This document shows positions 34,278 to 62,488 of a DNA stretch of 64,000 nucleotides, one piece after another; position 1 is the stretch's first letter, and every line of letters begins with the position of its first letter. The position numbers and the translations under genes were made by a program. The notes under the pieces were generated by a model. The model was not told the DNA's origin, did not search any database, and was given only the letters and a program-made list of their open reading frames with translations. The DNA lies in assembly GCA_013334575.1 (NCBI GenBank), contig JAAXXG010000003.1:12699-76698 (forward strand). Direction: 5' to 3'. Source of the DNA: Candidatus Moraniibacteriota bacterium. Lineage in GTDB: Bacteria > Patescibacteriota > Minisyncoccia > Moranbacterales > UBA1568.

Positions 34278-34282
34278 ACATT

Positions 34283-35304: not shown

Positions 35305-35322
35305 TCTTTTCCGCTCCCCGAC

Positions 35323-35386: not shown

Positions 35387-35461
35387 TCTCTTTTTTGGTT
35401 GCGGGTGCTGAGTATGCCGCGTCGATATTTTGACGGAGTCGCACTTCCTGGAAATATCCGT

Positions 35462-36112
35462 ATGAAACTATATCTTTCATCATACAAACTTGGGAACGAT
35501 ATCGAGGCCCTGAAAGGGCTTGTCCCCGCCGGGAACAGGAAGACGGCATTCATCCCGAACGCTCTCGATTTTTCCACTGATTCCGAACGGCGGGAGAAGA
35601 GCGAACGATCCGATGTCGAGGATTTGTCCGCGTTGGGTCTCGAGGTGGAACGATTGGATCTGAGGGACTATTTCGGCCTGCAGTCGGAACTGGAAACGAA
35701 GCTCGGTGATTTCGGCGTCATCTGGGTACGCGGCGGAAACGCGTTCGTACTTCGGAAGGCGATGAAGAAAAGCGGTTTCGATGAAATACTCCGGCGTTTC
35801 GTGGGGAAGAAGGAATTATTGTACGGGGGATATAGCGCGGGAATCTGCGTGTTGTCACCAACGTTGGAAGGGATAGACCTTGTCGACGATCCTTATGTAG
35901 ACCCGTACGGAGACCCTTCCGCGGCGTCGTTCGAAGGCCTCGGAATCGTTGACTATTCCATAGTCCCTCATTATCGGTCCGATCATCCGGAATCGGCGAG
36001 TATCGAAAAGGTCGTCGAATATCTTGAAGAAAAAGGGATCCGATATAGGACGCTCCGGGACGGGGACGTGATAATCTCGGAGGTTTCGGAGGAGTCCGCT
36101 GTGCGGGTCTGA
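35462..36112 (+). CDS. Peptidase S51 (dipeptidase E/cyanophycinase-like), paralog 1
   Basis: It has the VRGGNAFVL motif and the nucleophile context YGGYSAGICV. An upstream in-frame ATG at 35399 is an alternative start. Confidence 0.65.
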   Translation: MKLYLSSYKLGNDIEALKGLVPAGNRKTAFIPNALDFSTDSERREKSERSDVEDLSALGLEVERLDLRDYFGLQSELETKLGDFGVIWVRGGNAFVLRKAMKKSGFDEILRRFVGKKELLYGGYSAGICVLSPTLEGIDLVDDPYVDPYGDPSAASFEGLGIVDYSIVPHYRSDHPESASIEKVVEYLEEKGIRYRTLRDGDVIISEVSEESAVRV

Positions 36113-37058: not shown

Positions 37059-37258
37059 CACGACGCGCCTGCCCGGCAACGGACCGGGCGTTGTATTTTT
37101 AGTATCCTTGTTATTTTTTCCTAGAGGGGATATCGTAAAAAGGAAGTAACATTAGGTGGTAATACAGCTGCAAGAAACCGTTTCGGGCCGAAAAATCAAA
37201 AGAAAATTGATCTGCTTGTCATGTACGAGCATTTGTTTGTAGTCCAATAAATATAGAA

Positions 37259-38317: not shown

Positions 38318-39953
38318 AAAGTATACATTTAATATATCCCTGAGCGTTTTAAATCATCTTGGCAGAAATTTATATCGCAGCTTTGTTACGATACTTGGTG
38401 AGGGTATTTCTAATGCTTGGGACGCTGACGCGGACAGCGTTTATATTTACTACGATTCCGAAAATCAAACCTTATGCATCATGGACGATGGTGCTGGTAT
38501 GAGTTCTGAGGATTTTCAGGGTAAATTTCTACGTGTAGGCTATACAAAACGAAAAGGTTGTGGCCTAACAAGCCCTGGAGGGCGTCATTTTATTGGGCGT
38601 AAAGGGATTGGAAAGCTAGCACTTCTGTCTGCCGCTCAAACTGTAACAGTCATAACTAAGACCAAAGATGGCGAGTTTGTTTGTGGTGTTATTGATAACG
38701 GCGGATTGGACGAGGCTATTGATGAGGACACACAACAGGCTGATTATCCACTAGGTACGGTTGATCCTATCGCTTTTCTAGAGGAAAAGAATATAAGGAT
38801 TAACAAATCAGGTACCGTCGTTTGGTTTGATGGGTTGAAAGAAAAAGCAAGCCATAGTTTTGATTTTATAAAAAAATCTCTTGCTCTTTACTTTAGATTT
38901 TCATTGCAGGACTCAAATTTCAAAATATATTTTAATAATGAATTGGTCACGGTGAAAGAATTGCAAGGACTTTGTGATAGAACTCAGTTTTTATGGCAAC
39001 TCAACGATTCATTCTCTGATGATTTTATAAATCAAATGAGTCCAAAAAGAACTGATGTAATACTTGATGATCAAAAAATAACGGGGTTTATTGCATCTGT
39101 TAATGAGCCTAGAGACAGAAACATATTTGGCTCAGGAGAACGTGTTGGTATTGATGTGTTTGTGAACGGACGCATTAGAGAAGTTGATATACTAAAACAC
39201 TTTCCTCGATCACGTATCCCCGAGCAATATTTATATGGACAAGTTCATCTAAACGATTTCGACAATGACGAAGTTGACCGGTTTACAAGCAGTCGTGAAG
39301 GAATACATGTTGATGATCCTGATTTTAAAATAATTCGTGAAAAACTTGGCGAAGTAGTTAATTCCATTATTAAACAATGGGATGTTTGGCGGCTTGAATT
39401 GAGAGAAGAGGGAGATAGCGATAACGAGGAAAATCTTAAAAAAGAGCAACGATATTCAAGAAATTTATATAACCAAGTGGCCTCAAAATATGTGCCAGCG
39501 TCTGAACAAGCCGATACGGTCAGACAATGGGAACATGAGCTGGAGAAAGACGCCGAATTAAATCTTCGTTCGTATGCAGAATGCTTCATCTCTGAAAATT
39601 TGGTTAGAAGGTATTGGCAAGAGAAAGAAATTAATCCAGACCAAAACTCATCGCAAGAAGTAAGTCATTGGAGAAACTGTGAGACAAGAGACAAAAATCA
39701 GGCAAATATATCAATAGATATACGTCTTGATAACGATGACAAATACTACATTGGAATGGAGAACTTAGCGCGACAAGCAGAGGCTCCGGGAGCTGCTGGT
39801 TCTGGTAACGCTAGTTTGCCACATGATGCAAAGGCTTTTGCGCCGTTGAGAAATGCAGTTATGCACACTTCTTTACTCACAGATCAAGCAAAAAGTAGAT
39901 TAACTACAGTCCTGGATAATATAAGAGGGCGGATTAAAACTTTGCTTCAATAA
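38298..39953 (+). CDS. MORC/HATPase_c_3-type GHKL ATPase (551 aa) with C-terminal Rx4H HEPN-like motif
   Basis: The N-box reads EGISNAWDADA, G1 reads IMDDGAGMS and G2 reads GRKGIGKLA. The C-terminus has LRNAVMH (Rx4H). Its start overlaps the dcm 3' end by 20 nt. The gene is AT-rich. Confidence 0.6.
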   Translation: MKSMESEKYTFNISLSVLNHLGRNLYRSFVTILGEGISNAWDADADSVYIYYDSENQTLCIMDDGAGMSSEDFQGKFLRVGYTKRKGCGLTSPGGRHFIGRKGIGKLALLSAAQTVTVITKTKDGEFVCGVIDNGGLDEAIDEDTQQADYPLGTVDPIAFLEEKNIRINKSGTVVWFDGLKEKASHSFDFIKKSLALYFRFSLQDSNFKIYFNNELVTVKELQGLCDRTQFLWQLNDSFSDDFINQMSPKRTDVILDDQKITGFIASVNEPRDRNIFGSGERVGIDVFVNGRIREVDILKHFPRSRIPEQYLYGQVHLNDFDNDEVDRFTSSREGIHVDDPDFKIIREKLGEVVNSIIKQWDVWRLELREEGDSDNEENLKKEQRYSRNLYNQVASKYVPASEQADTVRQWEHELEKDAELNLRSYAECFISENLVRRYWQEKEINPDQNSSQEVSHWRNCETRDKNQANISIDIRLDNDDKYYIGMENLARQAEAPGAAGSGNASLPHDAKAFAPLRNAVMHTSLLTDQAKSRLTTVLDNIRGRIKTLLQ

Positions 39954-40128
39954 AGAAACTCACTCGCGTTATCAGGTCTTTGAGCGCGTGCTGTTAGGTG
40001 TTAGGGTAGGTCAGGCACAAGTAAATTAACTTGTGCGTTAGTGTAAACCGCTTTGAATGTCGGCAAGAAAATGGGTCAGTTACTCTTTCGAAGAGGATTT
40101 TTGAACCCATTGGCGGCTCGTGACCCGG

Positions 40129-40385
40129 AACGTGTTTCCTGATAGAGTGGTGAAAATACGTAGCGGGAAATAGTGATGAAGCGTATCCGGACCATCGTCC
40201 TTACCGGCGGGCCGTGCGGCGGCAAGAGCACGGTCCTGCGGGCCTTGCGCGAGGAATTCGGCGACCGGCTGGTGCCGGTGCCGGAGGCGGCGACCGTCCT
40301 CTTCGAGGGTGGTTTTCCGGTTCCCGGCCGCGATATCGAATGGAGCGAGGAGTGGCGGGAGGCCTTCCAACCGGCCGTGTTACAT
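40129..40385 (+). repeat. Copy 1 (~257 bp) of the promoter plus 5' end of the 43917 P-loop kinase gene
   Basis: It is about 95% identical to 43862-44120 and then diverges. Confidence 0.8.
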
Positions 40386-40415
40386 CTTTTCGGGGAGGAT
40401 GTTACATGTCTCTAG
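40176..40415 (+). pseudogene. Truncated N-terminal fragment (~70 codons) of the AAA_28-type P-loop kinase
   Basis: MKRIRTIVLTGGPCGGKSTVLRALREEFGDRLVPVPEAATVLFEGGFPVPGRDIEWSEEW is identical to the 43917 gene product. Unrelated sequence and a stop follow. Confidence 0.7.
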
Positions 40416-40518
40416 GGGGATATGTTACATCTTTTTTAGGCTTATATCGGTTTCTTTTGCTTTAATAAGGCATTTGTGCTACGATCTCGTTACATGATTT
40501 CAATCCTCTAGCACATCT

Positions 40519-41661
40519 ATGCGTGATAACCTGCATATCCCGAAACCCGATTTCGGGTCCAATCTCACTCGGCTGGTCGTCAAATTGGACCATCTGCGGT
40601 CACAGAACCTGTCCGGGAGCACTCCGGCGCATATCTTCTTCCAACTCAAGGAGATCTTTCACCTGCTCGAAAGCCTCGGCTCGACGCGCATAGAGGGAAA
40701 TCATACGACCTTAGCGGAGTACATCGAGACGAAGATCACCCCGGACGAACATCCGACGGAAGGGATCCGGGAGATACAGAACAACGAGGAAGTCATGGAT
40801 TTCGTCGAGAAGACCGACACGACCGGTCCGATTACGCACGCCTTCATCCGTGAAATCCAAAGCATGATCGTCCGCGACCTCTCGACAAACAGGGAGGGCG
40901 ATCATACTCCGGGACAATATCGGAACAAGAACGTCGCAATCAGTCATTCCGAGCATACGCCGCCGGACTTTGTCCGGGTCCGGGAATACATGGACGAGCT
41001 GGTCGACTTCATAAATGCTGAGAATGAACCGCAGTTCGATTTGCTGAAGACTGCGATCATGCATCATCGGTTCGCCTGGATACACCCGTTCGGAAACGGG
41101 AACGGTCGGACCGTGAGAGCGTTGACGTACGCGATGCTTATACGCCAGGGATTCAATCTGGAGAAGGGACGTCTGGTAAATCCGACCGCAGTCTTTTGTG
41201 TCGACAGGAACCGGTACTACGAGATGCTCGAGAAGGCTGATTCGGGGAATGATGCTGACGTGCTCGCATGGTGCGAATATGTCTTGGACGGACTCGATCG
41301 TGAAATCACGAAAGTGAACCGGCTTACCGATTATGCCTATCTGAAGGACGTCATCCTGAAACCCGCCATCGGGATATCTTTCGAAAGGAATTTCATCGCG
41401 GAAAAAGAGCGGAAAATTCTTCTGATAGCGGTCGATAAGCCGCTTTTTCAGGCGGGAGATATCGCTCATCTGTTCCCGGGCGTCGCGCATACCGAGGTAT
41501 CCCGATTCCTCCGCGGGATGCGGGAGAAGAAACTTATCCGGCCAATCGCGCCGAATGCCAGGAAATATTCGATGGAAATCGCAAACGGGTATCTGTTGCG
41601 AGGCATCATGAAGGCACTCGATGAGAACGACTTTCTGCCCCTGAAGGGCGAGGCGGAGTAG
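40519..41661 (+). CDS. Fic-family protein (AMPylase/Fido domain)
   Basis: It has the Fic motif HPFGNGNGRTVRAL (HxFx[DE]GNGRxxR) and a C-terminal wHTH-like region. Confidence 0.85.
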   Translation: MRDNLHIPKPDFGSNLTRLVVKLDHLRSQNLSGSTPAHIFFQLKEIFHLLESLGSTRIEGNHTTLAEYIETKITPDEHPTEGIREIQNNEEVMDFVEKTDTTGPITHAFIREIQSMIVRDLSTNREGDHTPGQYRNKNVAISHSEHTPPDFVRVREYMDELVDFINAENEPQFDLLKTAIMHHRFAWIHPFGNGNGRTVRALTYAMLIRQGFNLEKGRLVNPTAVFCVDRNRYYEMLEKADSGNDADVLAWCEYVLDGLDREITKVNRLTDYAYLKDVILKPAIGISFERNFIAEKERKILLIAVDKPLFQAGDIAHLFPGVAHTEVSRFLRGMREKKLIRPIAPNARKYSMEIANGYLLRGIMKALDENDFLPLKGEAE

Positions 41662-41741
41662 AAACCCGTAAAAGAACGACCTGGTCCGGAAAAGGTGTCA
41701 GGTGCTTTTGACTGATGTCAGATGGCCGAGGGGCGTAAACG

Positions 41742-41846
41742 CCGTGACCCGGACCGCGTTTCCTGATAGAGTGGGGAAAATACGTAGCGGGAATCGATGA
41801 AGCGTATCCGGACTATCGTCCTTACCGGCGGGCCGTGTAGAGCCCT
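41742..41846 (+). repeat. Copy 2 (~105 bp) of the kinase promoter plus first ~30 codons
   Basis: It reads CCGTGACCCGGACCGCGTTTCCTGATAGAGTGGGGAAAATACGTAGCGGGAATCGATGAAGCGTATCCGGACTATCGTCCTTACCGGCGGGCCGTG. A TAG follows. Confidence 0.8.
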
Positions 41847-41891
41847 TTATGAATAGGTGGGGGTTGATTGAGTACTTAGTAAGGTATCTTT

Positions 41892-42464
41892 ATGATGAAG
41901 TTTGATGAGCCTCCGCGCGGCGGATCTTTAGAGGAGTGCTCTAAAGAGTCGTATATGAATCCTCGTTCGGATAGGCCGAAGTACAAGGGGCGTGATAGGG
42001 AAATCGGAGAGCGAGAAGCTAAACGACGACTCGCCATTCTTCCCAAGTTGGAAAAGATTTCTCGCGACTTCTGTGCGAAGCATTCCATAGAAAATTGTCC
42101 GATTTTGATTCCAAAGGGTTCTGCCGATGTCGGCATGAGTACTCCAGAGAGTGATTTTGATGTGGCGGTTGTTGTTAGCTCGCCTCATATTTTCCTGCAG
42201 GATCCGAACGTATGGAGGCAATATGTATCTATGCTTGAGGTGGCTGCTGATGAGGACTTCCGAGTGGAGCTACATCTTATTTCTCGATCGGAATCTGGTC
42301 TCCGTTTCGGAACGGAATTTTCCAATCATATTTCAAATGCTGAGTCGGATTCCGGATTCGGGGATTTATTTAAGAAGTTTGCTGAGTTTAAGATAGGAAA
42401 GGCGGATTGTATAAAGGATAAAAATCATGGCCAAGATACGTCCGACACGAATTCGATGGGGTAG
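41892..42464 (+). CDS. Minimal nucleotidyltransferase (MNT, Pol-beta superfamily)
   Basis: It has the motif KGSADVGMSTPESDFDVAVVV (GS...[DE]xD). It is a low-GC gene. The true start may be the internal ATG at 41955. Confidence 0.65.
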   Translation: MMKFDEPPRGGSLEECSKESYMNPRSDRPKYKGRDREIGEREAKRRLAILPKLEKISRDFCAKHSIENCPILIPKGSADVGMSTPESDFDVAVVVSSPHIFLQDPNVWRQYVSMLEVAADEDFRVELHLISRSESGLRFGTEFSNHISNAESDSGFGDLFKKFAEFKIGKADCIKDKNHGQDTSDTNSMG

Positions 42465-42505
42465 TTTTGAGTCTGTGTATTTTAGGATAAACCTGTCGCG
42501 GAACC

Positions 42506-42604
42506 CGTGACCCGGACCGCGTTTCCTGATAGAGTGGGGAAAATACGTAGCGGGAATCAATGAAGCGTATCCGGACTATCGTCCTTACCGGCGGGCCGTG
42601 CGGC
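42506..42604 (+). repeat. Copy 3 (~100 bp) of the kinase promoter plus first ~30 codons
   Basis: It is a near-identical paralog of 41742-41846. Confidence 0.8.
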
Positions 42605-42691
42605 AAAAAAGGGCCGGTCACCTCTTTTGCCCGGAGTGGGATCGCGATAGTGTCGGTATCGATAAAAGTTGCATGACACTTTTCTGCAGGA

Positions 42692-43795
42692 ATGTTTTTG
42701 GAACTTATTCGATCAATTTTTATGGAAAAATTTTTTACACAAGAAGTCAATGCGACCGGAAAGAGTATTGAGAAAGGGAGCGATTTTTTTGGGAGAATCG
42801 AAGAGCACTCTCGCGCCTTTGATCGTGAGACTGCTGATACGCGCAAGCGTTCTCGGGATGAAATACGAGAGCACTGGCGTGAGACGGAATGGAAAATCGG
42901 GGATACGACAGTGCATGCCATTGGCGTGATGCATGTGCCGGAGACGTTTTTGGAGTATCGCAAAGAAATCGAGAACGCAATCAAAGAAAGCGATATTGTT
43001 GTGAATGAATTCGCTCCCGAAGCGTTGGGTTTGTATGACAAGGAATCCGTACCGCACCTGCAACGGACGGCATCCCTGTTCAATGAGCATTATAATTTGG
43101 AACAATTACGGCAGATATATTTGAAGAACGAACGAGAATGGAATACGGGCATGTTTCATCATGAGATAGAGCTTCTTACGGCGAAATATGATAAAGATAT
43201 GGCGCTTATGGATCTCAATATGACCAAGGATTGTGAAGATTTGCTTCAGGGGAGCTCTTTGTATGCTCATGCTGCGGAACAGTCTGATGAGAATGCCGCA
43301 ACGCTCAAAAAACTCGGTTTGTACGCCGGGGCGGCCGCTTCAGTTGCCGGCGCCGTGGCGCAGAAACCCATGTCACGGAGGAAATTTTTGCGGCTTGCCC
43401 TTCTCGGTACCGGAGCGACGATAGCCGGAATAACACCAAAGCTGACTGAAACCCCGCCTCAAACAGCCATTAAGAAAGAGATGTCGATGGAGGACAAGCG
43501 GGTCGGCATGGTATTGCGTGATTTGCAAATCGCCGATTCTTTGCAGCGTCTTGCGGGGCTCGGGTATAAAAATATCACGTTTATTTACGGAGTCGGTCAT
43601 CTGTCCGGAGTCGGGAAACATCTGCATAATCCGGAAGAGTTTAGAAACATGTTGGATGAAAAAAAGGAACAACTTCATGCGTGCAATTCCGACGCCTTTC
43701 GCATATACCGTCTTGCGGACGGAGAAAATACGTCGGAAAAATTCGTCGCTTCGGACAAAAAGGTTTGGAAGCGCATCTCACCTGCAAGGGTTTAA
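42692..43795 (+). CDS. TraB/GumN-family protein
   Basis: The N-terminal motif reads TTVHAIGVMHVPETF (hxhVGxxHV). The C-terminal motif reads IYGVGHLSGV. It is a low-GC gene. Confidence 0.45.
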   Translation: MFLELIRSIFMEKFFTQEVNATGKSIEKGSDFFGRIEEHSRAFDRETADTRKRSRDEIREHWRETEWKIGDTTVHAIGVMHVPETFLEYRKEIENAIKESDIVVNEFAPEALGLYDKESVPHLQRTASLFNEHYNLEQLRQIYLKNEREWNTGMFHHEIELLTAKYDKDMALMDLNMTKDCEDLLQGSSLYAHAAEQSDENAATLKKLGLYAGAAASVAGAVAQKPMSRRKFLRLALLGTGATIAGITPKLTETPPQTAIKKEMSMEDKRVGMVLRDLQIADSLQRLAGLGYKNITFIYGVGHLSGVGKHLHNPEEFRNMLDEKKEQLHACNSDAFRIYRLADGENTSEKFVASDKKVWKRISPARV

Positions 43796-43916
43796 TTTCA
43801 GAAAACGTACCTTGTACTTCTCGAATGAAGTATCAGGGTCGAATTTTCGGGAGGCAAGGAACCGTGACCCGGACCGCGTTTCCTGATAGAGTGGGGAAAA
43901 TACGTAGCGGGAATCG

Positions 43917-44549
43917 ATGAAACGTATCCGGACCATCGTCCTTACCGGCGGGCCGTGCGGCGGCAAGAGCACGGTCCTGCGGGCCTTGCGCGAGGAATTC
44001 GGCGATCGGCTGGTGCCGGTGCCGGAGGCGGCGACCGTCCTCTTCGAGGGCGGTTTTCCGGTTCCCGGCCGGGACATCGAGTGGAGCGAGGAGTGGCAGG
44101 AGGCGTTCCAACCGGCCGTGCTGGCGCTGCAGGCCGCGCTCGAACAAAGTCACGCGCTCTTGGCCGCGGACCGGGACGTGGTGCTCGTGTGCGACCGGGG
44201 CCGGCTCGACGGGGCGGCGTATACCGAGGGCGGCGTCGGGGCGTTCTGCCGGATCCACGGGCTCGACGAGACCGAGACGCACGGACGGTACGACCTGGTG
44301 ATCCATCTGGAGTCGCTTGCGACGAGCCATCCCGAACGCTACGGGACCGAGGGGAACGCCGCGCGCTACGAGTCGCTCGAACAGGCGCAGGCGCTTGAGC
44401 GCGCGACGCGGGAGGCGTGGGGGAATCATCCACGGCGGAAAATGATCGGCGGGGAGCGGGGGATGGAGGGAAAGATCGAGGATGTGGTCGCGGTCGTGCG
44501 CGAACTGCTCGGCGAGGGCTCGGAATATTCCGATAAGGGACAACGATAA
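43917..44549 (+). CDS. AAA_28/NadR-like P-loop NTPase (predicted nucleoside/nucleotide kinase), full length
   Basis: The Walker A is LTGGPCGGKST. It is 210 aa. Its promoter and 5' end exist in three further upstream copies. Confidence 0.65.
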   Translation: MKRIRTIVLTGGPCGGKSTVLRALREEFGDRLVPVPEAATVLFEGGFPVPGRDIEWSEEWQEAFQPAVLALQAALEQSHALLAADRDVVLVCDRGRLDGAAYTEGGVGAFCRIHGLDETETHGRYDLVIHLESLATSHPERYGTEGNAARYESLEQAQALERATREAWGNHPRRKMIGGERGMEGKIEDVVAVVRELLGEGSEYSDKGQR

Positions 44550-45507: not shown

Positions 45508-46896
45508 ATGAAGAACACCGCGACGAACCTGTCCTCCGCGGCTGGGAACGGAAACAGGAAGCGGCTTCCCAAGGCCGAGCGCATCGCGATCAGCCTGTAC
45601 AAGCGCACGTTGAACCGGAAGCGGTTCGGCCGGTTTCTCCGTATCCTGGGTCCGGGGCTCGTGACCGGGGCGGCAGACGACGACCCGTCGGGCATCGCGA
45701 CCTATTCGCAGGCGGGCGCCATGAACGGCTTCGGGCTCCTGTGGGCGTTCCCGCTCATGTACCCGCTTCTTCTCGGTGTACAGGAGAGCTGCTCGCGTAT
45801 CGGCGCGGTCACGGGCAAGGGGCTTGCGGCGGTCATCAAGGAATACTACGGTCGGCGCATCCTGCTGTTCGCGGTCCTGCTCGTGGTGTCGGCGAACGCG
45901 GTGAACATCGGTGCCGATCTCGGCGCGATGGCCGAGGCGACCCGGCTGTTCGTCGATCTGCCACAGATCTTCCTCGCGGTCCTGTATGCCGCGATCGTGG
46001 TGCTGCTGGTCGTTTTCGTGAACTATCGGACCTACGCCCGGATCCTCAAGTGGCTTGCGCTCTCGCTCCTGGCGTATCCGCTGACGGCATTCATGGCCGG
46101 GCTCGACTGGGCACAGGTTCTCCGGAGCACCTTCCTTTCGGTTCCGCGCCTCGACGCGGAGACCATGTACATCCTCGTCGGTATCATCGGGACCACCGTA
46201 TCGCCCTACCTGTTCTTCTGGGACACGTCCGAGGTGGTGGAAGAAGAGATCGCGAAACACAACCGGGCGTCGATCGGCCGCGATCCCAAGCCGACCGCGC
46301 GGTTTCTCCGCAATCTCCGTATCGACAACCTCGTCGGGATGACCGCCGCCAACCTGACGGCGTGGTTCATCGTCGTGGCCTGCGCCTCGACCCTTCATCT
46401 TGCCGGAGTGACCGAGATCGGCACTGCCGCCGAGGCGGCGCGCGCGCTCGAACCGATGGTCGACGGGTTCCCGCATGCGGGGCTCGTGGCCAAACTCGTC
46501 TTCTCGATCGGTATCGTCGGAACGGGGCTTCTCGCGGTTCCGGTGCTCGCGGGATCGTCGTCGTACGCGATCAGCGAGGCGTTCGGCTGGAAGGAAGGAC
46601 TGTCCCGAAAGTTCCGTAACGCCCGCGGGTTCTATGCCGTCATCGCGGTCGCGACCTTCGTCGGCCTCGCGCTCAATCTTTTCGGCGTCGACCCGATCAA
46701 GGCGCTCGTCTTCACGGCGGTCTTCAACGGTATCGCCGCGGTACCACTCCTTTTTCTTATCGTGCGGATCGGCAACGATGCCGCGATCATGGGTGACTAC
46801 CGCAACGGCCGGTGGTCCAACCTGTCCGTCCGGCTGGCGGCCGCGACCATGACCGTCGCGGTAATCGGGTTGTTCGTGTCGATGCTTGTCCGATAG
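45508..46896 (+). CDS. mntH: NRAMP-family divalent metal (Mn2+/Fe2+) transporter
   Basis: GPGLVTGAADDDPSGIATYSQAGA resembles the NRAMP TM1 metal-binding DPGN region. It is about eleven-TM. Confidence 0.7.
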   Translation: MKNTATNLSSAAGNGNRKRLPKAERIAISLYKRTLNRKRFGRFLRILGPGLVTGAADDDPSGIATYSQAGAMNGFGLLWAFPLMYPLLLGVQESCSRIGAVTGKGLAAVIKEYYGRRILLFAVLLVVSANAVNIGADLGAMAEATRLFVDLPQIFLAVLYAAIVVLLVVFVNYRTYARILKWLALSLLAYPLTAFMAGLDWAQVLRSTFLSVPRLDAETMYILVGIIGTTVSPYLFFWDTSEVVEEEIAKHNRASIGRDPKPTARFLRNLRIDNLVGMTAANLTAWFIVVACASTLHLAGVTEIGTAAEAARALEPMVDGFPHAGLVAKLVFSIGIVGTGLLAVPVLAGSSSYAISEAFGWKEGLSRKFRNARGFYAVIAVATFVGLALNLFGVDPIKALVFTAVFNGIAAVPLLFLIVRIGNDAAIMGDYRNGRWSNLSVRLAAATMTVAVIGLFVSMLVR

Positions 46897-46909
46897 CGTT
46901 CAGATATAT

Positions 46910-47446
46910 ATGAAGACCGAATTCGAAGGGCGGATACTCGGAGTCGATCCGGAAGCACTCGTGCGGATACTCGAGGAGCTCGGGGCCGAGAAGGTCGGCG
47001 AGTACCTGTATCGGCGCCATATCTACGACCTCGAACCGGGAAAAGACGAGGCGTGGATCCGACTCCGGACCGACGGCCAGACGACGACTCTGACCATCAA
47101 GGAACGCGAGCGGGACGCCGTGGACGGGATGAAGGAACTTGAATTTCCGGTCGGCGACTTCGACACAGCGCATCTTTTCGTCGAACGTCTCGGACGGCCG
47201 GCACGATGGAAACAGGAAAACCGGCGGATCCGTTACGTGCTCGATGGGATCGAGATCGATATCGACTCATGGCCGCTCATCCCGCCGTATCTCGAGGTGG
47301 AGGGGGATTCCGTGGAGGCTGTCGAACGGATGATCGAGCGGTTGGGATTTTCGCTTTCCGATATGGTCACGTTCGGGACCAAGGCTATCTATGAGAACTA
47401 CGGCATCGACCTGCATGCGATTCCGGATTTGCGGTTCGAGGAATGA
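46910..47446 (+). CDS. CYTH-domain protein (class IV adenylate cyclase/triphosphate tunnel metalloenzyme), paralog 1
   Basis: The N-terminal ExExK-type motif reads MKTEFEGRIL. IEIDIDSWP...YLEVEG is the C-terminal CyaB-like region. An upstream ATG at 46886 is an alternative start. Confidence 0.6.
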   Translation: MKTEFEGRILGVDPEALVRILEELGAEKVGEYLYRRHIYDLEPGKDEAWIRLRTDGQTTTLTIKERERDAVDGMKELEFPVGDFDTAHLFVERLGRPARWKQENRRIRYVLDGIEIDIDSWPLIPPYLEVEGDSVEAVERMIERLGFSLSDMVTFGTKAIYENYGIDLHAIPDLRFEE

Positions 47447-56214: not shown

Positions 56215-56262
56215 ATGCTTTACAGTATATGCTTCGGGGAGTAGAAAGGGGGTGAAAGGGGC
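56215..56262 (+). repeat. Conserved leader repeat (GCTTTACA...GGGGAGTAGAAAGGGGGTGAAAGGG), copy 1
   Basis: It is about 85% identical to 58579-58626. Both copies precede a gene start by 20-40 nt. Confidence 0.55.
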
Positions 56263-57809: not shown

Positions 57810-57820
57810 AATCAACGGCG

Positions 57821-57920
57821 AAGCGGTTCAGGAAGACCTGAAAGCCTTCCTCCTGTCACTTGGCATCGGCACAGACGACATCGTCACCAAAGGCTACGAC
57901 ACGCTATTGTATGAGAAGGG
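57821..57920 (+). repeat. Orphan copy (~100 bp, ~92% identity) of the 3' end of the CYTH gene at 59101-59200
   Basis: It would encode ...AVQEDLKAFLLSLGIGTDDIVTKGYDTLLYEKG*. It sits between the 56283 gene and the S51 paralog. Confidence 0.8.
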
Positions 57921-57940
57921 GATCTGATTACACATCGACT

Positions 57941-58564
57941 ATGAAACTGATACTCGCTTCCGATTTGAGCTTTGTCCTGAAATACGGATATGGCCATACC
58001 GGTATCCCGAAGGCGGATATGCGGATCGGGTATGTGACGACCGCAACGAAGGGCGCTCGCTCGAAGGAATTTTTTGAAAACATGGAGCGGCAGATCGTGG
58101 AGTCCGGATATACTTTCGAGGAGTTCGACATCGAAGGAAAAAGCGCAGAAGAAATGAGATCGTTCTTCTCGGACAAGAATGTGATCCATATCGAGGGTGG
58201 CAATACCTTCTATCTTCTGAAAGCCATCCGAGAAACCGGCTTCGCCGAGGTACTCGATGAACTTCTCAAAGAGGGGAAAGTCTATATCGGTACGAGTACG
58301 GGATCCTATATAATGTGCCCGTCGATCGAAGTGGCGGATTGGGACGAAACCGGAAAAAGCCGGTTCGGAATGACCGACTTCACCGCCCTCAATTATGTCC
58401 CGTTCGTCCTCAAGGTACATTACAAGGATGAGATGCAGGAATCCGTGAGGGAAAAGATGAAGACTGCGCACCATCCGCTCCGATTACTGCGTGAAGGGCA
58501 AGGCATCCTCGTCGACAACGGCGTCGAAACCTTCGTCGGTGACGGAGAAGAAACGGTGTTATAG
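57941..58564 (+). CDS. Peptidase S51, paralog 2
   Basis: It has the IEGGNTFYLL motif and the nucleophile context IGTSTGSYIM. Confidence 0.65.
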   Translation: MKLILASDLSFVLKYGYGHTGIPKADMRIGYVTTATKGARSKEFFENMERQIVESGYTFEEFDIEGKSAEEMRSFFSDKNVIHIEGGNTFYLLKAIRETGFAEVLDELLKEGKVYIGTSTGSYIMCPSIEVADWDETGKSRFGMTDFTALNYVPFVLKVHYKDEMQESVREKMKTAHHPLRLLREGQGILVDNGVETFVGDGEETVL

Positions 58565-58578: not shown

Positions 58579-58626
58579 CTTTACAACGGCGTGTTTGGGG
58601 AGTAGAAAGGGGGTGAAAGGGATGGA
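58579..58626 (+). repeat. Conserved leader repeat, copy 2
   Basis: It reads CCGCTTTACAACGGCGTGTTTGGGGAGTAGAAAGGGGGTGAAAGGG. Confidence 0.55.
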
Positions 58627-58665
58627 TATTCCGTTCCGATGGTGGGGTATGTCATTAGTACCGAC

Positions 58666-59229
58666 ATGAAGGAAATCGAGATCAAAGCTCGGATGCGCGA
58701 TATCGACACGCTGACCGGGGCGCTTGCCGCCAAGGGGTTCGTGTTCGGCGAACCCGCGGTCCAAAACGACGTGATATTCCTGCCGGCCGGGATCGAGTTC
58801 CCGGAAATCACCAAAGGGGTTCCGGTCGTGCGCGTGCGGAACGCGGACGGCGTTTCGACCCTGACGCTCAAGATGGGTGTCGTCGCCGGGAAGGAGCTCA
58901 TAAAGCTGGAGAAGGAGGTGAGGGTGGGCGACGACAAGACGGCTATCGAGATCGTCTCGCTTATGGGATTTCACGAGGTGATACGAGTCGGCAAGAAACG
59001 GATGGAATGCGAACACGACGGCGTGACCGTCTGTATCGACGACGTGACCGGACTCGGGGCGTTCATCGAGGTCGAGCAATTGTCGGACGCTGAAAACGAC
59101 GAAGCGGTCCAGGAAGAGCTGAAAGCCTTCCTTCTGTCGCTCGGCATCGGCACAGACGACATCGTCACCAAAGGCTACGACACGCTTTTGTATGAGAAGG
59201 ATAGCCGCTTTGCAAGGATTGGATTATAG
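58666..59229 (+). CDS. CYTH-domain protein (class IV adenylate cyclase-like), paralog 2
   Basis: The N-terminus reads MKEIEIKARM (ExExK). It has the CYTH beta-barrel motifs. Its 3' 100 bp are duplicated at 57821-57920. Confidence 0.65.
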   Translation: MKEIEIKARMRDIDTLTGALAAKGFVFGEPAVQNDVIFLPAGIEFPEITKGVPVVRVRNADGVSTLTLKMGVVAGKELIKLEKEVRVGDDKTAIEIVSLMGFHEVIRVGKKRMECEHDGVTVCIDDVTGLGAFIEVEQLSDAENDEAVQEELKAFLLSLGIGTDDIVTKGYDTLLYEKDSRFARIGL

Positions 59230-59308
59230 AGTAGAAATGAATGAGATTTATTTCAAGTGATAATTGTATATATTGTTACCTAGCAATAATTGATTTTGAC
59301 CTTTCAAT

Positions 59309-60568
59309 ATGAATCTAAAAACATTCGATGTGCATTCATATCGATCATGCCAGAGCGTTAAATTTCCTCTTAATAGAGATTTAACTGGTTTGATTGGGAT
59401 AAATGGATCGGGTAAAACCAACGTTTTGAATTCAATTTTTTTGCTGAGAAAAATATCAGAATTCAGATTCAAATACGCGAATAATCGAGACACAGAATAT
59501 AATACTTGCAAAATTGGAGCAGTCTTTGAACATAACGGGATATCCATTCAGTTGAAGGCGACGATCTATCTTGAAATGGATGAACGAAATAATGACGAGA
59601 TAATTTCTTCCGATTTTAAATGGAAGTTTTCGAATTATAATTCGAAAGAATGGCTGACAATTCCTATTGAATTCTTTTCGAATCAATTTAATAGCAGCTC
59701 ATTTCATCTTCCAGTAAGTATTCGTAGTAACATTCGTTTTTCAAAAGGATCAAGGGGCAGTTTTTTTGAAATATATAAATTATTCCATACAAAAGAATTT
59801 AAAAAAAATGTGCAACCATTACTTCATGAAGTATTTGAATTCATCAATGGAATAAATTATTATAGCGCGACACAATTTTCTGATCCCGGACGCTGTCCAG
59901 TCTCTATTGAACTGGAAGAAGACAGGTTTCGAAGGAGGACGCATTCTTCATCTGGTCATGAGCAGTTCATTTTCGATTTATATAATTCACACAAGCAAAA
60001 TGATAAGGAGTTTATAAGATATTTTAATACAATAGGCAAAGTTGGAATTGGTCTGATTGACGAATTGTCTTTTGAGACTTTACCAATTCCATCAAGTACC
60101 TATAAGGTGCGATCTGGTGGTCAAATTAAACAAAAAAATTTCGAGAGACAACTGATCGTACCAATTTTTACAATTAATGGTAAGAAATTGTCGCCTAACC
60201 AATTATCTGAAGGGACGTTCAAGACATTAGCATTGCTCTATTACCTCATTACGGATAAAAGCACACTACTTCTAATTGAGGAACCTGAGGTATGTATCCA
60301 TCATGGCTTGCTCGACAGTATAATTAAGTTATTGATTAGTCAGTCAAAGCATAAACAAATTATTATAAGTACACATTCGGATTTTGTACTAGATCACTTG
60401 TCACCAGAGAATATACTCCTTGTTAAATATCTGGAGACAAAAGGAACAACGGTTAAACAATTATCAAAGTCAATGAGTAGTGATGAGTATCGGGCTCTGA
60501 AGATGTATCTCAAAGAGTCGGGTAATTTAGGTGAATATGCACGAGAAGGCGGATTCGAGTATGAGTAA
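59309..60568 (+). CDS. OLD/ABC-type AAA ATPase (AAA_21-like), AT-rich gene
   Basis: The Walker A is GINGSGKTN. LSEGTFKTLALL is signature-like. The Walker B is LLLIEEPEVCIHH. The H-loop is IISTHS. Confidence 0.75.
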   Translation: MNLKTFDVHSYRSCQSVKFPLNRDLTGLIGINGSGKTNVLNSIFLLRKISEFRFKYANNRDTEYNTCKIGAVFEHNGISIQLKATIYLEMDERNNDEIISSDFKWKFSNYNSKEWLTIPIEFFSNQFNSSSFHLPVSIRSNIRFSKGSRGSFFEIYKLFHTKEFKKNVQPLLHEVFEFINGINYYSATQFSDPGRCPVSIELEEDRFRRRTHSSSGHEQFIFDLYNSHKQNDKEFIRYFNTIGKVGIGLIDELSFETLPIPSSTYKVRSGGQIKQKNFERQLIVPIFTINGKKLSPNQLSEGTFKTLALLYYLITDKSTLLLIEEPEVCIHHGLLDSIIKLLISQSKHKQIIISTHSDFVLDHLSPENILLVKYLETKGTTVKQLSKSMSSDEYRALKMYLKESGNLGEYAREGGFEYE

Positions 60569-61145
60569 ACGAAAGCCAAGAGTCGGAATAATTGCAGAAG
60601 ACAGGAGTGATATTGAGTGCGTACGAGCGCTGATTTTTCGAATAACAAATGATAATAAAATTGGTGTAGACGGGATGGCGAAAAATGGATGCACCATGCT
60701 GGTTCGGAAGTGCGGACATTGGGCTGTTAATTTACATGAAAAAGGATGTAATTTGCTAATTGTGATTCATGATTCGGATGGGAAAGATCCGCGTGCGATA
60801 CATAATAGGATTGAGCTTGCGCTTCATGCGTGTCCGATAGTAAAGAAAATAATCACAATACCTGTCGAAGAAATTGAAGCCTGGTTGCTTGCTGATCCTA
60901 ATGCAATAAAAAAAGGCATCAATTTAGATAAGATTCCAAAAATTAATAGAAACGTTGAACAAATATCTTCCCCAAAGGAATTTCTCGAAGACATTATTGA
61001 TAAAACATCTAATCGAGAAAAGATCTATATTAATAGTAAACATAATGCAATGATTGCTCGCAACATCGATATAGAAAAGATTAAGGAAAAGTGCCCATCC
61101 TTTTTGCCGTTTCTTAAATTTGTACAGGAAAACACTGTTTCGTAG
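60561..61145 (+). CDS. TOPRIM-like small protein (DUF4276/RloB-like), partner of the upstream ATPase
   Basis: It has a conserved Glu in GIIAEDRSD, a DxD in VIHDSDG and an EIEAWLLADP motif. Its start overlaps the ATPase stop as ATGAGTAA. It is AT-rich. Confidence 0.55.
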   Translation: MSKRKPRVGIIAEDRSDIECVRALIFRITNDNKIGVDGMAKNGCTMLVRKCGHWAVNLHEKGCNLLIVIHDSDGKDPRAIHNRIELALHACPIVKKIITIPVEEIEAWLLADPNAIKKGINLDKIPKINRNVEQISSPKEFLEDIIDKTSNREKIYINSKHNAMIARNIDIEKIKEKCPSFLPFLKFVQENTVS

Positions 61146-61253
61146 CGTAGCAAAGGGGCTCAGGTACTTTGAGCTATAATCGAGCACATGTTGAGCATCA
61201 GGCTGACGGGATTCGAATGCGGACGAAGGGAGGGAATGTGCGATACTGGCGAT

Positions 61254-61400
61254 ATGACAAAGGATGAGACATACGAACGGATACTGAAAGAAGCGAGGAA
61301 CGATTCCGAAGTCCTCGGCTTCGCTCTGACCGGGGGAGTAGGGAAGGGCTTCGTGACCGAACATTCGGAAAGATATGAACAGGCGGGCGGAAGATGGTAG
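61254..61400 (+). pseudogene. Possible truncated N-terminal fragment of an ANT(6)/AadK-like nucleotidyltransferase
   Basis: MTKDETYERILKEARNDSEVLGFALTGG resembles the AadK N-terminus M..E.EM.D.ILDFALNDERIRLVTLEGS. It stops after 48 codons. Confidence 0.25.
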
Positions 61401-61423
61401 TATTGAATCGTAGTTCTTAAGAT

Positions 61424-61864
61424 ATGCTTATGAAGGTAGGTGTTGATTATATCGGAGTCGGATGCGGGGCTATCGTCATAAACGAAAAGGACGAAGTACT
61501 GCTCCTGAGGCGATCGACAACGTCGCGGACCGATCCCGGAAAATGGTGTCGTCCGGGCGGGCAGGTCGAATTTGGTGAGTCTGTCGCGGCTGCGGTCGAG
61601 CGTGAAACGAAGGAAGAGGCGGGTATCGTCGTACGCGCAATCAGGCCGCTTGAATTCACGGATGATCGTTCCGAAGATATGTCGAAACACTGGATTGCAC
61701 TCGGGTATCTCGCCGAACACGTTTCCGGTGAACCGGTGAACGTTGAACCTGACAAGCACGACACAATCGGATGGTTTCCGCTTGACCAGCTTCCGGAAAA
61801 CCTGGCGACATATACAAAGAACTCGATTGACGTGTATCTTGATCAAAAGCGATACGGGCTGTAA
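61424..61864 (+). CDS. NUDIX hydrolase
   Basis: The Nudix box reads GGQVEFGESVAAAVERETKEEAGI (Gx5Ex7REUxEExGU). Confidence 0.8.
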   Translation: MLMKVGVDYIGVGCGAIVINEKDEVLLLRRSTTSRTDPGKWCRPGGQVEFGESVAAAVERETKEEAGIVVRAIRPLEFTDDRSEDMSKHWIALGYLAEHVSGEPVNVEPDKHDTIGWFPLDQLPENLATYTKNSIDVYLDQKRYGL

Positions 61865-61873: not shown

Positions 61874-62488
61874 ATGCTCATCTTTCTCGCGTCGACTGCG
61901 GCAAAGACTATCGATAGGATCGTACCGCTGTTGCCGAAACCGGCCGCAGAGATGCGGGTGGCGTTTGTTCCGACGGCGGGTGATATTTACGATCCGCATC
62001 CGTGGGTTGAGGCGGACCGGGATGCGCTCGTCGGTCTCGGGTTCCAGGTCGCGGATATTGACTTGAAGACATGCCACGGAGAAGAGCTGAGGAAACGACT
62101 TTCCGGGGCGGATATCATCTTTGTCGCCGGAGGGAGCACTTCGTATCTTCTTGAGCAGGCACAACTGAGCGGCTTCGTTGTCATCGCGCGGGATCTTGTT
62201 CGGGCGGGGAAGATATACGTCGGCTCGAGCGCCGGGTCACTTCTTGCGGGCCCTGATATCGAGGTGGACAAGGTATATGACGAAGGGGATTTCGGAAAGA
62301 CGTTGGCCTCGTATGAGGGACTCGGACTTGTCGATTTCGTCGTCTTGCCGCATGCCGACCGTTTGGACTATCTTCCGTATCTGGAACGGGCGGAGTTGGA
62401 GTATGGTGAGGGCCGAAAGCTGGTTAGGCTCAATGAAATGCAGGCGATTGTCGTCACGGACGACGGGATGAAACGTATTGAGGCATGA
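61874..62488 (+). CDS. Peptidase S51, paralog 3
   Basis: It has the FVAGGSTSYLL motif and the nucleophile context YVGSSAGSLL. Confidence 0.65.
   Translation: MLIFLASTAAKTIDRIVPLLPKPAAEMRVAFVPTAGDIYDPHPWVEADRDALVGLGFQVADIDLKTCHGEELRKRLSGADIIFVAGGSTSYLLEQAQLSGFVVIARDLVRAGKIYVGSSAGSLLAGPDIEVDKVYDEGDFGKTLASYEGLGLVDFVVLPHADRLDYLPYLERAELEYGEGRKLVRLNEMQAIVVTDDGMKRIEA

What the first reader, a model, noticed from the sequence alone, without database searches (positions are those of the whole stretch)
59309..61145. AT-rich two-gene module: OLD/ABC-type AAA ATPase plus overlapping TOPRIM-like (DUF4276/RloB-like) protein. Candidate PARIS/AbiL-like anti-phage system
A 419-aa ATPase has the Walker A GINGSGKTN, Walker B LLLIEEPE and H-loop ISTHS. 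It is followed by a 194-aa protein with a conserved Glu plus HDSDG (DxD) and an EIEAWLLAD motif. Their start and stop overlap as ATGAGTAA. Both have GC far below the surrounding genes. Split ATPase-plus-TOPRIM pairs are the architecture of PARIS (AriA/AriB) and AbiL (AbiLi/AbiLii) abortive-infection systems. This divergent pair sits in a CPR-like genome among cassette-type genes and is worth classifying.
Basis: partly seen in the sequence, partly recalled or inferred. Interest (0 to 1): 0.7.

Follow-up and report, generated by a model that had tools for sequence, protein, structure and literature searches.

The report
ABC ATPase plus DUF4276 nuclease cassette
A foreign-looking, AT-rich pair of overlapping genes in a Moranbacteria genome encodes an ABC-type ATPase and a small DUF4276 (TOPRIM-like) putative nuclease; it is a divergent member of the already catalogued candidate anti-phage system HEC-01, so it is real but not new in kind.

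Summary
A 419-aa ABC ATPase gene (59309-60568) and a 194-aa DUF4276 gene (60561-61145) overlap as ATGAGTAA. They lie in a 1.9-kb stretch of about 35% GC between 53% GC flanks.

Profile searches place the pair in PADLOC's candidate system HEC-01 (ABC ATPase plus DUF4276/TOPRIM), but with modest scores, so it is a divergent clade. It is not PARIS, because nothing matches AriB/DUF4435. It is not AbiL, because nothing matches RloB. It is not MADS, because it scores far below the MAD3 cut-off and no other mad genes are present.

In 80 loci from species-representative genomes of many bacterial phyla, CPR and one archaeal MAG:
- the DUF4276 gene always follows the ATPase gene;
- the two proteins co-vary (r = 0.85);
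- the pair averages 10 GC points below its flanks;
- no third gene is conserved;
- DNA homology between related copies stops within about 30 nt of the two genes.

The most likely function is anti-phage defence, with an ATPase sensor controlling a metal-dependent nuclease. This is inferred, not shown. Published tests of HEC-01 gave one negative and one positive result. Novelty: a new member of a known kind. Interest: low to moderate.

The parts
59230..61150 (+). Low-GC island (about 35% GC) that holds the whole cassette. It begins just after the stop of the upstream CYTH gene (stop 59227-59229) and ends a few bases after the stop of B.
   Evidence: Composition profile. Pair GC is 0.349 against flanks of 0.531 and 0.535. 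In 70 related loci the GC dip is confined to the two genes plus about 100-300 nt.
59230..59308 (+). AT-rich 79-nt leader upstream of gene A, presumed to carry the cassette's own promoter. No consensus sigma-70 site or clear Shine-Dalgarno sequence was called.
   Evidence: Sequence. The promoter scan found no site here. Homology between related cassettes usually starts only about 30 nt upstream of the A start codon.
59309..60568 (+). Gene A: a 419-aa ABC-type (Rad50/SMC/PtuA-like) ATPase with AAA_21/AAA_15 domains. It has Walker A G30-K36, signature LSEGT 299-303, Walker B/D-loop 320-327 and H-loop H356.
   Evidence: Pfam AAA_21 at 2.6e-21 and AAA_15 at 2.2e-13. PADLOC HEC-01A at 5.8e-24. AF2 model with pLDDT 81; Foldseek matches Rad50 and PtuA at E 1e-14 to 1e-11. 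The motifs are at least 95% conserved in 79 homologues.
60546..60554 (+). Shine-Dalgarno-like GAAGGCGGA inside the 3' end of A (codons of the conserved C-terminal E-G-G), ending 6 nt before the start codon of B. It points to translational coupling.
   Evidence: An SD-like motif lies in the equivalent position in 60 of 78 loci, with consensus GAAAGAAGGGGGTTTTGAAA.
60561..60568 (+). ATGAGTAA overlap of the B start codon and the A stop codon (8 nt).
   Evidence: Sequence. An 8-nt overlap occurs in 39 of the 82 rows listed (81 loci, one a duplicate, plus the window), and ATGAGTAA is the commonest form.
60561..61145 (+). Gene B: a 194-aa DUF4276 protein with a TOPRIM-like alpha/beta core. E13 follows strand 1, D71-x-D73 follows strand 3, and E104/E106 follow strand 4. 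A C-terminal helical bundle carries K139 and H161/N162. It is the putative metal-dependent nuclease effector.

Best explanation
The two genes form a self-contained, horizontally acquired operon. It is a divergent clade of the ABC-ATPase plus DUF4276 pair that PADLOC lists as candidate defence system HEC-01, and it has the same domain architecture as the Mad3-Mad4 pair of MADS. The most likely function is anti-phage or anti-mobile-element defence. The two proteins are made together through translational coupling and probably form a complex. The ABC ATPase would act as sensor and switch, binding and hydrolysing ATP and detecting an infection cue. It would then license or release the DUF4276 protein, a TOPRIM-like Mg2+/Mn2+-dependent nuclease that cuts nucleic acid (DNA as in OLD and Gabija, or tRNA as in PARIS) and so stops the infection, possibly at the cost of the cell. 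Shown here: domain identities, intact catalytic motifs, strict gene pairing, co-variation of the two proteins, foreign composition and the cassette boundaries. Inferred only: complex formation, the trigger, the nuclease substrate and the defence phenotype.
For: Domain identity: A is AAA_21/AAA_15 and B is DUF4276. The best PADLOC families are HEC-01A and HEC-01B.

Catalytic residues: the ABC motifs of A, and E13, D71, D73, E104 and E106 of B, are at least 95% conserved across 79 pairs.

Pairing: all 80 genome loci found with A carry B directly downstream on the same strand, and two of those B copies are frameshifted. An 8-nt or 4-nt overlap is found in 52 of the 82 rows listed. An SD-like motif is embedded in A's conserved C-terminal codons in 60 of 78 loci.

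Co-evolution: the A and B pairwise-identity matrices correlate at r = 0.85, Mantel p = 0.001.

Autonomy: no neighbouring family is shared by more than 4 of 80 loci.

Foreign, patchy spread: the pair averages 0.10 lower in GC than its flanks. It occurs in many phyla, including CPR and one archaeal MAG.

Literature: HEC-01 was predicted as a defence system because it is embedded in Hma systems, and HEC-01B was described as TOPRIM-like with an OLD-like metal site (bioRxiv 10.1101/2024.01.29.577857). DUF4276 is assigned to the Toprim superfamily and Mad4 is a DUF4276 protein (PMC12065111). mad3 and mad4 deletions weaken MADS defence (bioRxiv 10.1101/2023.03.30.534895). One HEC-01 representative protected E. 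coli B against at least one phage (bioRxiv 10.1101/2024.09.26.614923). PARIS gives the mechanistic precedent for an ABC ATPase controlling a TOPRIM nuclease (PMC11464382).
Against: There is no functional data for this clade. The HEC-01 representative tested by Payne et al. protected against none of the phages tried. The scores against the HEC-01 models are modest: about 83 bits for A and 54 bits for B, whereas an unrelated neighbouring DUF4276 gene in one locus reached 7e-73. This clade may therefore behave differently.

Immediate neighbours are mostly housekeeping genes, not defence islands. The family is almost absent from phage and plasmid records.
Confidence: 0.6

Rival explanations
1. The pair is a selfish addiction module of the toxin-antitoxin or abortive type. 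B would be a toxic nuclease held in check by A, and the cassette would persist through post-segregational killing rather than by protecting the host from phages.
For: It is a tight two-gene operon with translational coupling. Its distribution is patchy and GC-aberrant, with no conserved partner. It sits among housekeeping genes rather than in defence islands. Pfam describes AAA_21 as a 'putative AbiEii toxin, Type IV TA system' domain.
Against: The family is almost absent from plasmids, where addiction modules thrive. One HEC-01 representative gave phage protection. This explanation largely overlaps with abortive-infection defence rather than excluding it.
Confidence: 0.15
2. The pair is only an accessory sub-module that needs a larger system to act, such as MADS/Hma, restriction-modification or BREX, in the way Mad3-Mad4 work inside MADS. 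Alone it would be inert.
For: HEC-01 was discovered embedded in Hma systems. Mad3/Mad4 are accessory genes of MADS and contribute to its defence. A hits the mad3 models weakly. A type II restriction-modification pair and a SoFic-like gene lie about 20 kb upstream in the window.
Against: In 80 loci no neighbouring family recurs in more than 4 loci, and few neighbours are defence genes. DNA homology between related cassettes ends within about 30 nt of the two genes. A scores 67 bits against the MAD3 cut-off of 420, and B matches no NCBIfam model.
Confidence: 0.1
3. The pair is a housekeeping-type DNA repair or recombination module, analogous to RecF (an ABC ATPase) working with RecR (a TOPRIM protein).
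For: The N-terminus of A resembles RecF, Rad50 and SMC heads. An ABC ATPase with a TOPRIM protein is also the RecF-RecR combination (established knowledge).
Against: The distribution is sporadic across phyla, the GC is strongly foreign and there is no conserved genomic context. B keeps a full acidic catalytic set typical of TOPRIM nucleases. Neither protein matches a RecR model, and A's RecF match covers only the N-terminus, at 33 bits against a cut-off of 172.
Confidence: 0.05
4. The cassette is self-mobilising, in a homing-like way. Its own nuclease and ATPase would promote insertion of the bare 1.85-kb cassette at new sites, with defence secondary or absent.
For: Cassette homology stops within tens of bases of the two genes. 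The GC dip is confined to the genes plus 100-300 nt. Recombinases or transposases are adjacent in only about 7 of 145 neighbouring genes. The family is nearly absent from phage and plasmid records.
Against: No terminal repeats or target duplications were found around the window copy. No conserved insertion site exists. No precedent is known for TOPRIM/ABC homing. Decay of a larger carrier element with retention of the useful genes explains the same pattern.
Confidence: 0.05

Closest known systems
HEC-01 (PADLOC 'Hma-embedded candidate 01': HEC-01A ABC ATPase plus HEC-01B DUF4276/TOPRIM)
   Same: The two-gene architecture, gene order and domain content are the same. Both window proteins have HEC-01A and HEC-01B as their best PADLOC families. 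HEC-01B is described as TOPRIM-like with an OLD-like metal site.
   Different: The scores are modest (83 and 54 bits) and the best-scoring models match only part of each protein, so this is a clade not directly modelled in PADLOC-DB 2.0. It is not embedded in an Hma system here, nor do the 80 related loci share any conserved neighbouring gene. The defence evidence for HEC-01 itself is mixed: negative, and one positive representative.
Mad3-Mad4 of the methylation-associated defence system MADS
   Same: It is an AAA_15/21 ABC ATPase followed by a DUF4276 protein. Both genes contribute to defence in P. aeruginosa. A hits the mad3 models at 5e-18 in PADLOC and 1.3e-18 in NCBIfam.
   Different: A scores 67 bits against the MAD3 equivalog cut-off of 420. 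B has no NCBIfam or mad4 hit. No mad1, 2, 5, 6, 7 or 8 genes flank the pair in the window or recur in the relatives.
PARIS (AriA ABC ATPase plus AriB DUF4435 TOPRIM nuclease)
   Same: It has a split ABC ATPase and a TOPRIM-type effector encoded by adjacent genes that co-evolve. It offers a plausible mechanistic template, in which a sensor scaffold releases a nuclease.
   Different: B is DUF4276, not DUF4435, and has no AriB hit at E<=1. B is 194 aa, whereas AriB is about 35 kDa. A's AriA hits are generic AAA_21/AAA_15-type models, AriA structures rank weakly by sequence (E 6e-4) and none is in the Foldseek top 50. PARIS is often carried by phages and satellites, while this family is almost absent from phage records.
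AbiL (AbiLi ATPase plus AbiLii RloB-type TOPRIM)
   Same: It is a two-gene pair of an AAA_21-type ATPase and a small TOPRIM-superfamily protein. A hits AbiLi at 4.6e-20.
   Different: B has no RloB (PF13707) or AbiLii hit.
OLD-family nucleases and Gabija GajA (fused ABC ATPase-TOPRIM)
   Different: Here the two domains are separate proteins. No GajB-like helicase is adjacent. hhalign of the B family against P2 Old found no similarity.

Membership tests
HEC-01 (PADLOC candidate system) | ABC ATPase matching the HEC-01A profiles | tested here: met
   At least 10 HEC-01A models match, best at 5.8e-24 and 82.8 bits. The scores are modest and the best stretches cover mainly the C-terminal half. Pfam AAA_21 and AAA_15 pass their cut-offs.
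HEC-01 (PADLOC candidate system) | Adjacent, co-oriented DUF4276/TOPRIM protein matching the HEC-01B profiles | tested here: met
   Twenty HEC-01B models match (best 4.4e-15), plus one 190-position model labelled HEC-01A. Two of these give near full-length alignments, PDLC04191 and PDLC04143. Pfam DUF4276 scores 54 bits against a cut-off of 30.2. The genes overlap by 8 nt.
HEC-01 (PADLOC candidate system) | Demonstrated anti-phage activity | not testable with these tools
   The literature is mixed: no protection in E. coli MG1655, and protection by one representative in E. coli B. Nothing is known for this clade.
PARIS | AriB effector (DUF4435 / OLD-type TOPRIM, about 35 kDa) | tested here: not met
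   B has no AriB or DUF4435 hit at E<=1 in PADLOC or Pfam. B is 194 aa. The PARIS complex chain 8ux9_A is only a weak Foldseek hit (E 0.037, probability 0.35).
PARIS | AriA-type ABC ATPase | tested here: inconclusive
   The AriA models hit at 5e-22 and 8e-13, with the same coordinates as the generic Pfam AAA_21 and AAA_15 models. Solved AriA matches only at E 6e-4 over 60 residues.
AbiL | AbiLii / RloB (PF13707) partner protein | tested here: not met
   B has no RloB or AbiLii hit at E<=1.
MADS (Mad3-Mad4 within mad1-8) | MAD3 equivalog ATPase | tested here: not met
   NF047739 scores 67.4 bits against a curated cut-off of 420.
MADS (Mad3-Mad4 within mad1-8) | Presence of the mandatory mad6-8 genes and the methyltransferase mad2 in the same locus | tested here: not met
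   The flanking genes are CYTH, Peptidase_S51, NUDIX and a polyprenyl-synthetase-like gene. No recurrent neighbour is seen in 80 loci, and only 1 of 145 neighbours hits mad2.
OLD family / Gabija | ATPase and TOPRIM fused in one polypeptide (plus the GajB helicase for Gabija) | tested here: not met
   They are two separate ORFs in all 80 loci. No UvrD-type neighbour is conserved.
TOPRIM superfamily (for protein B) | Alpha/beta core with strands b1-a1-b2-a2-b3-a3-b4, a conserved Glu after b1 and DxD after b3 | tested here: met
   The AF2 model (pLDDT 87) has strands at 7-12, 35-40, 65-70 and 97-101 with helices between them. E13 directly follows b1 and D71-x-D73 directly follows b3. E13, D71 and D73 are invariant in 78 sequences.
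TOPRIM superfamily (for protein B) | Significant structural or profile similarity to bona fide TOPRIM domains | tested here: inconclusive
ABC ATPase (Rad50/SMC/RecF/OLD class) (for protein A) | Walker A, ABC signature, Walker B/D-loop and H-loop, with an ABC head fold | tested here: met
   G30-K36, LSEGT 299-303, EEPE 324-327 and H356 are at least 95% conserved. Foldseek matches Rad50, PtuA and SMC heads at E 3e-14 to 1e-10.

The most novel reading that the evidence does not exclude
This is a distinct clade of ABC-ATPase/DUF4276 systems that current models do not cover. It moves between bacteria, CPR and possibly archaea as a bare 1.85-kb two-gene cassette with no recombinase, terminal repeats or carrier element. 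It may therefore use its own TOPRIM nuclease and ATPase to insert itself, in a homing-like way, or it may have a trigger and substrate unlike PARIS, OLD or Gabija.
Probability: 0.08. Interest if true: 0.7.

Novelty: new member of a known kind. Interest (0 to 1): 0.3.

Why it matters
ABC-ATPase plus TOPRIM pairs are a recurring design in prokaryotic immunity (OLD, Gabija, PARIS, AbiL, Mad3-4). The DUF4276 branch (HEC-01) is the least understood of them. None of my sequence-based searches of the PDB found a solved structure for it. Its substrate is not known, and its phage-protection data conflict.

This clade is compact, widespread (at least 100 species representatives by a strict peptide pattern, of which 80 were examined) and strictly two-gene, which makes it a clean model for working out how the DUF4276 branch functions. 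It also adds a candidate defence system to a CPR (Moranbacteria) genome. In itself, though, the finding extends a known candidate family rather than revealing a new kind of system.

Tried and rejected
1. PARIS, AbiL and MADS membership: rejected. B has no AriB/DUF4435, RloB/AbiLii or mad4 hit, and A is far below the MAD3 cut-off.

2. Flanking repeats or att/attC-like ends around the island: only short chance-level repeats lie within 58900-61600. No promoter or terminator was called in the flanks.

3. Empty-site search. A metagenome scan with the upstream CYTH protein found related mosaic contigs but no clean empty site. Exact look-ups of the CYTH and NUDIX proteins found nothing. The only other contig carrying A has the same arrangement.

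4. Phage or plasmid carriage. tblastn of A found no hit in 50,697 phage and 72,556 plasmid records. B gave only distant DUF4276 hits: two cyanobacterial plasmids and one phage record. One IMG/VR contig carries the pair.

5. Conserved third gene: none. The most widespread neighbour family occurs in 4 of 80 loci.

6. Sequence-level link of B to solved structures or to P2 Old: none.

7. Rfam families in the window: only tRNAs.

8. Structure-based proof that B is TOPRIM: weak and ambiguous.
Full report
OBSERVATION. ORF A runs 59309..60568 (ATG start, 419 aa). ORF B has its ATG at 60561 and its stop at 61143-61145 (194 aa); an alternative GTG at 60531 would give 204 aa. The start codon of B and the stop codon of A overlap as ATGAGTAA at 60561-60568. 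All the quoted motifs are present: GINGSGKTN, LLLIEEPE and ISTHS in A, and a Glu in GIIAED, HDSDG and EIEAWLLAD in B. GC is 0.31-0.41 in 400-nt windows from 59200 to 61199, against 0.50-0.58 on both sides. The source is a 109-kb contig of a 'Candidatus Moranbacteria' MAG: proteins P0001 and P0008 are 100% identical to B and A. The 'CPR-like' remark is therefore right as far as the depositor's label goes.

WHAT THE PROTEINS ARE.

Protein A passes the Pfam cut-offs for AAA_21 (2.6e-21), AAA_15 and, marginally, SMC_N. Its AlphaFold2 model has a mean pLDDT of 81. Foldseek matches it to Rad50, retron/Septu PtuA and SMC head domains at E 3e-14 to 1e-10. By sequence, its nearest solved relatives are GajA, PtuA, Rad50, OLD and, weakly, AriA. 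In 79 homologues the following motifs are at least 95% conserved: Walker A (G30, N32, G35, K36), signature LSEGT (299-303), Walker B/D-loop (E324-E327) and H-loop (H356). A is therefore an intact ABC-class ATPase.

Protein B passes the Pfam cut-off for DUF4276 (2.9e-14, 54 bits against 30.2). It matches neither RloB nor DUF4435. Its AF2 model (pLDDT 87, pTM 0.85) has a four-strand alpha/beta core followed by a helical bundle. E13 lies right after strand 1, D71-x-D73 right after strand 3, and E104/E106 right after strand 4. That is the TOPRIM layout. E13, D17, D71, D73, E106, W108, D112, K139 and N162 are invariant in 78 homologues.

My own structure searches support the TOPRIM assignment only weakly:
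- Foldseek lists a PARIS complex chain and OLD at ranks 7-8 with E about 0.04, and nothing at E<=1e-3.
- hhalign of the 78-sequence B profile against P2 Old is negative.
- No solved structure matches by sequence.

The assignment of DUF4276 to the Toprim superfamily therefore rests chiefly on published work (PMC12065111; bioRxiv 10.1101/2024.01.29.577857), together with the motif positions seen here.

WHICH SYSTEM. In PADLOC-DB the best families are HEC-01A for A (5.8e-24, with at least ten models hit) and HEC-01B for B (best 4.4e-15, with twenty models hit). [quoted passage not shown]. A also hits AriA, AbiLi, mad3, Old, PtuA and GajA models, as any AAA_21-type ATPase would. B hits no AriB, AbiLii or mad4 model. 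In NCBIfam, A scores 67 bits against the MAD3 equivalog cut-off of 420, and B has no hit. The pair is therefore not PARIS, AbiL or MADS. It is a divergent clade of the ABC-ATPase plus DUF4276 kind, that is HEC-01, with the same domain architecture as Mad3-Mad4. The scores are modest, and an unrelated neighbouring DUF4276 gene in one locus reaches 7e-73 on a HEC-01B model. This clade is therefore not directly modelled in PADLOC-DB 2.0.

COMPARATIVE GENOMICS.
- Family size. A has more than 1,297 homologues. The best 120 are mostly full length at 42-64% identity and come from very different lineages. B's family has 2,043 representatives at 50% clustering with E<=1e-3, and 135 with E<=1e-30.
- Taxonomic spread. 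A pattern scan of one genome per GTDB species returned 101 confirmed loci, of which 80 were kept. They span Pseudomonadota, Bacteroidota, Acidobacteriota, Planctomycetota, Chloroflexota, Verrucomicrobiota, CPR (Gracilibacteria, Saccharibacteria, Parcubacteria) and a Nitrososphaeria MAG.
- Pairing. In all 80 loci a B homologue lies immediately downstream on the same strand; two copies are frameshifted.
- Overlap. Of the 82 rows listed (the 80 loci, one duplicate look-up of L009, and the window), the genes overlap by 8 nt in 39 and by 4 nt in 13.
- Translational coupling. An SD-like GAAGGNGG, formed by the codons of A's conserved C-terminal E-G-G, sits 8-14 nt before B's start in 60 of 78 loci.
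- Co-evolution. The A and B pairwise-identity matrices correlate at r = 0.85, Mantel p = 0.001. The two genes are inherited as a unit, as reported for AriA/AriB.
- Composition. The pair averages 0.10 lower in GC than its flanks, and 77% of loci are more than 0.05 lower. The dip is confined to the genes plus about 100-300 nt.
- Cassette limits. DNA homology between related cassettes in unrelated contexts starts about 30 nt before A's ATG and ends about 10-35 nt after B's stop.
- Neighbours. No neighbouring family recurs in more than 4 of 80 loci. Of 145 immediate neighbours, 3 are tyrosine recombinases, 4 are transposases and roughly ten hit defence models. The rest are ordinary genes.
- Mobile-element carriage. 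A has no tblastn hit in the phage or plasmid collections. One IMG/VR contig carries the pair.

The unit is thus a bare, autonomous, frequently transferred two-gene cassette.

LOCAL CONTEXT. The island (about 59230-61150) lies between a CYTH gene (58639-59229) and a 70-codon gene fragment (61188-61400). A NUDIX gene and a Peptidase_S51 gene follow the fragment. No terminal repeats bound the island. The surrounding 40 kb is a mosaic of repeated intergenic elements and gene fragments. For example, the last 106 nt of the CYTH gene (59095-59200) recur at 57814-57919 at 93% identity. The fragment after B (61169-61369) recurs three times in a related metagenome contig, L086. There, a low-GC type II restriction-modification pair occupies the position directly upstream of that fragment. 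This suggests that the site is a recombination-prone slot into which different foreign defence cassettes have landed in related genomes. No clean empty site was found.

MECHANISM (inferred). The cassette most likely acts as a defence system. The coupled expression, the co-variation, the intact ATPase motifs and the intact acidic set in B all fit an ABC ATPase that senses an infection cue and controls a TOPRIM-type metal-dependent nuclease. The established precedents are PARIS (AriA releases AriB, which cuts tRNA; PMC11464382) and OLD/Gabija (DNA cleavage). The trigger, the stoichiometry and the substrate are unknown.

Experimental support for the kind is mixed. The HEC-01 representative of Payne et al. 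protected against none of the phages tested. One HEC-01 representative from cold-seep metagenomes protected E. coli B against at least one of T4, T5 and T7. mad3 and mad4 deletions weaken MADS.

The rivals are listed in the report with their tests: a selfish addiction module, an accessory module that needs a partner system, RecF/RecR-like repair, and a self-mobilising homing-like element.

VERDICT. The pair is a new, divergent member of a known candidate kind (HEC-01, of Mad3-Mad4 type). It is of low to moderate interest (0.3). Its value is as a compact, widespread model for the least characterised branch of ABC-ATPase/TOPRIM immunity, and as a defence candidate in a CPR genome.

Noticed in passing
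window 37259-39953: This is a second low-GC island (about 39% GC). It holds a C5 cytosine DNA methyltransferase (PF00145; PADLOC MTase_II/DrmMII at 3e-92) overlapping a 551-aa protein with a GHKL (HATPase_c_3) domain. That protein matches type II restriction enzyme models at 1e-34, so the island is probably a type II restriction-modification system. A homologous pair lies in metagenome contig L086 (889-3619).
   Followed up: partly
window 40519-41661: A Fic-domain protein matches the PADLOC SoFic model (7.9e-49) directly downstream of the restriction-modification island. With that island it forms a small defence cluster about 18 kb upstream of the finding.
   Followed up: partly
window 29168-30190: A third low-GC island (about 37% GC) encodes a 340-aa protein with no Pfam or PADLOC hit. 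A 53-nt sequence upstream of it (28891-28943) is 89% identical to the sequence at 37041-37092, which spans the end of the methyltransferase gene just upstream of the restriction-modification island.
   Followed up: no
window 25161-35387 (copies starting at 25161, 27258, 28975, 30862, 31949, 35244 and 35325): A 63-90-nt intergenic element occurs seven times, with consensus CTTGCCTTTTCGGCCCGGAGGGGTATGGTGGAGGTGTTGGTGTCT..AAAAAGGTACCTGACC. It lies upstream of same-strand genes. It reads like a repeated promoter (TTGCCT, 16 nt, TATGGT) plus leader. No Rfam family matches it.
   Followed up: partly
window 40119-44120 (copies starting at 40119, 41743, 42506 and 43863): A second repeat family has four copies sharing a 58-nt core, and individual pairs extend to about 100-260 nt at 88-99% identity. 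The copies separate the Fic gene and two genes of unknown function. The first and last copies extend to 261 nt and include the start of an ORF.
   Followed up: no
window 57814-57919 and 59095-59200: The last about 106 nt of the CYTH gene directly upstream of the cassette are duplicated, at 93% identity, as an orphan 3' gene fragment downstream of the polyprenyl-synthetase-like gene. Metagenome contigs L083, L084 and L086 carry the same fragment in other arrangements. A 28-nt repeat (56233-56260 and 58594-58621) precedes both upstream genes.
   Followed up: partly
window 61169-61400; L086 3766-3966, 4799-4835 and 5091-5225: The 70-codon ORF right after gene B (MLSIRLTGFECGRREGMCDTGDMTKDETYERILKEARNDSEVLGFALTG...) has no Pfam hit and looks like a gene fragment. 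It recurs three times in related contig L086. There, a low-GC restriction-modification pair sits directly upstream of one copy, which may mark a shared insertion slot for foreign defence cassettes.
   Followed up: partly
window 25065-25107, 30280-30322 and 30356-30398; also 24811-24902 against 24981-25052: A 43-nt sequence that starts at the last bases of tRNA-Ser(GCT) and runs just downstream of it is repeated twice about 5 kb further on. These look like att-type direct repeats of an element integrated at the tRNA. A degenerate tRNA-Ser-like copy lies about 170 nt upstream of the tRNA.
   Followed up: no
window 33350-34228 (-): An IS-type transposase (rve integrase core plus HTH_23) is one of the few minus-strand genes in the 25-64 kb region.
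   Followed up: no
L006 5800-11620 against L007 1-5811: A Dehalococcoidia MAG (DBZK01000027) and a Nitrososphaeria archaeon MAG (JBEKIG010000035) share 5.8 kb at 99.8% identity, including the A-B cassette. This is either a binning artefact or a very recent cross-domain transfer. The single archaeal locus in the survey should therefore be treated with caution.
   Followed up: partly
window 35399-36112, 57860-58564 and 61874-62488; 46886-47446 and 58639-59229: There are three Peptidase_S51 paralogues and two CYTH paralogues. They are scattered through the repeat-rich region, which is consistent with duplication and shuffling of small gene cassettes.
   Followed up: no
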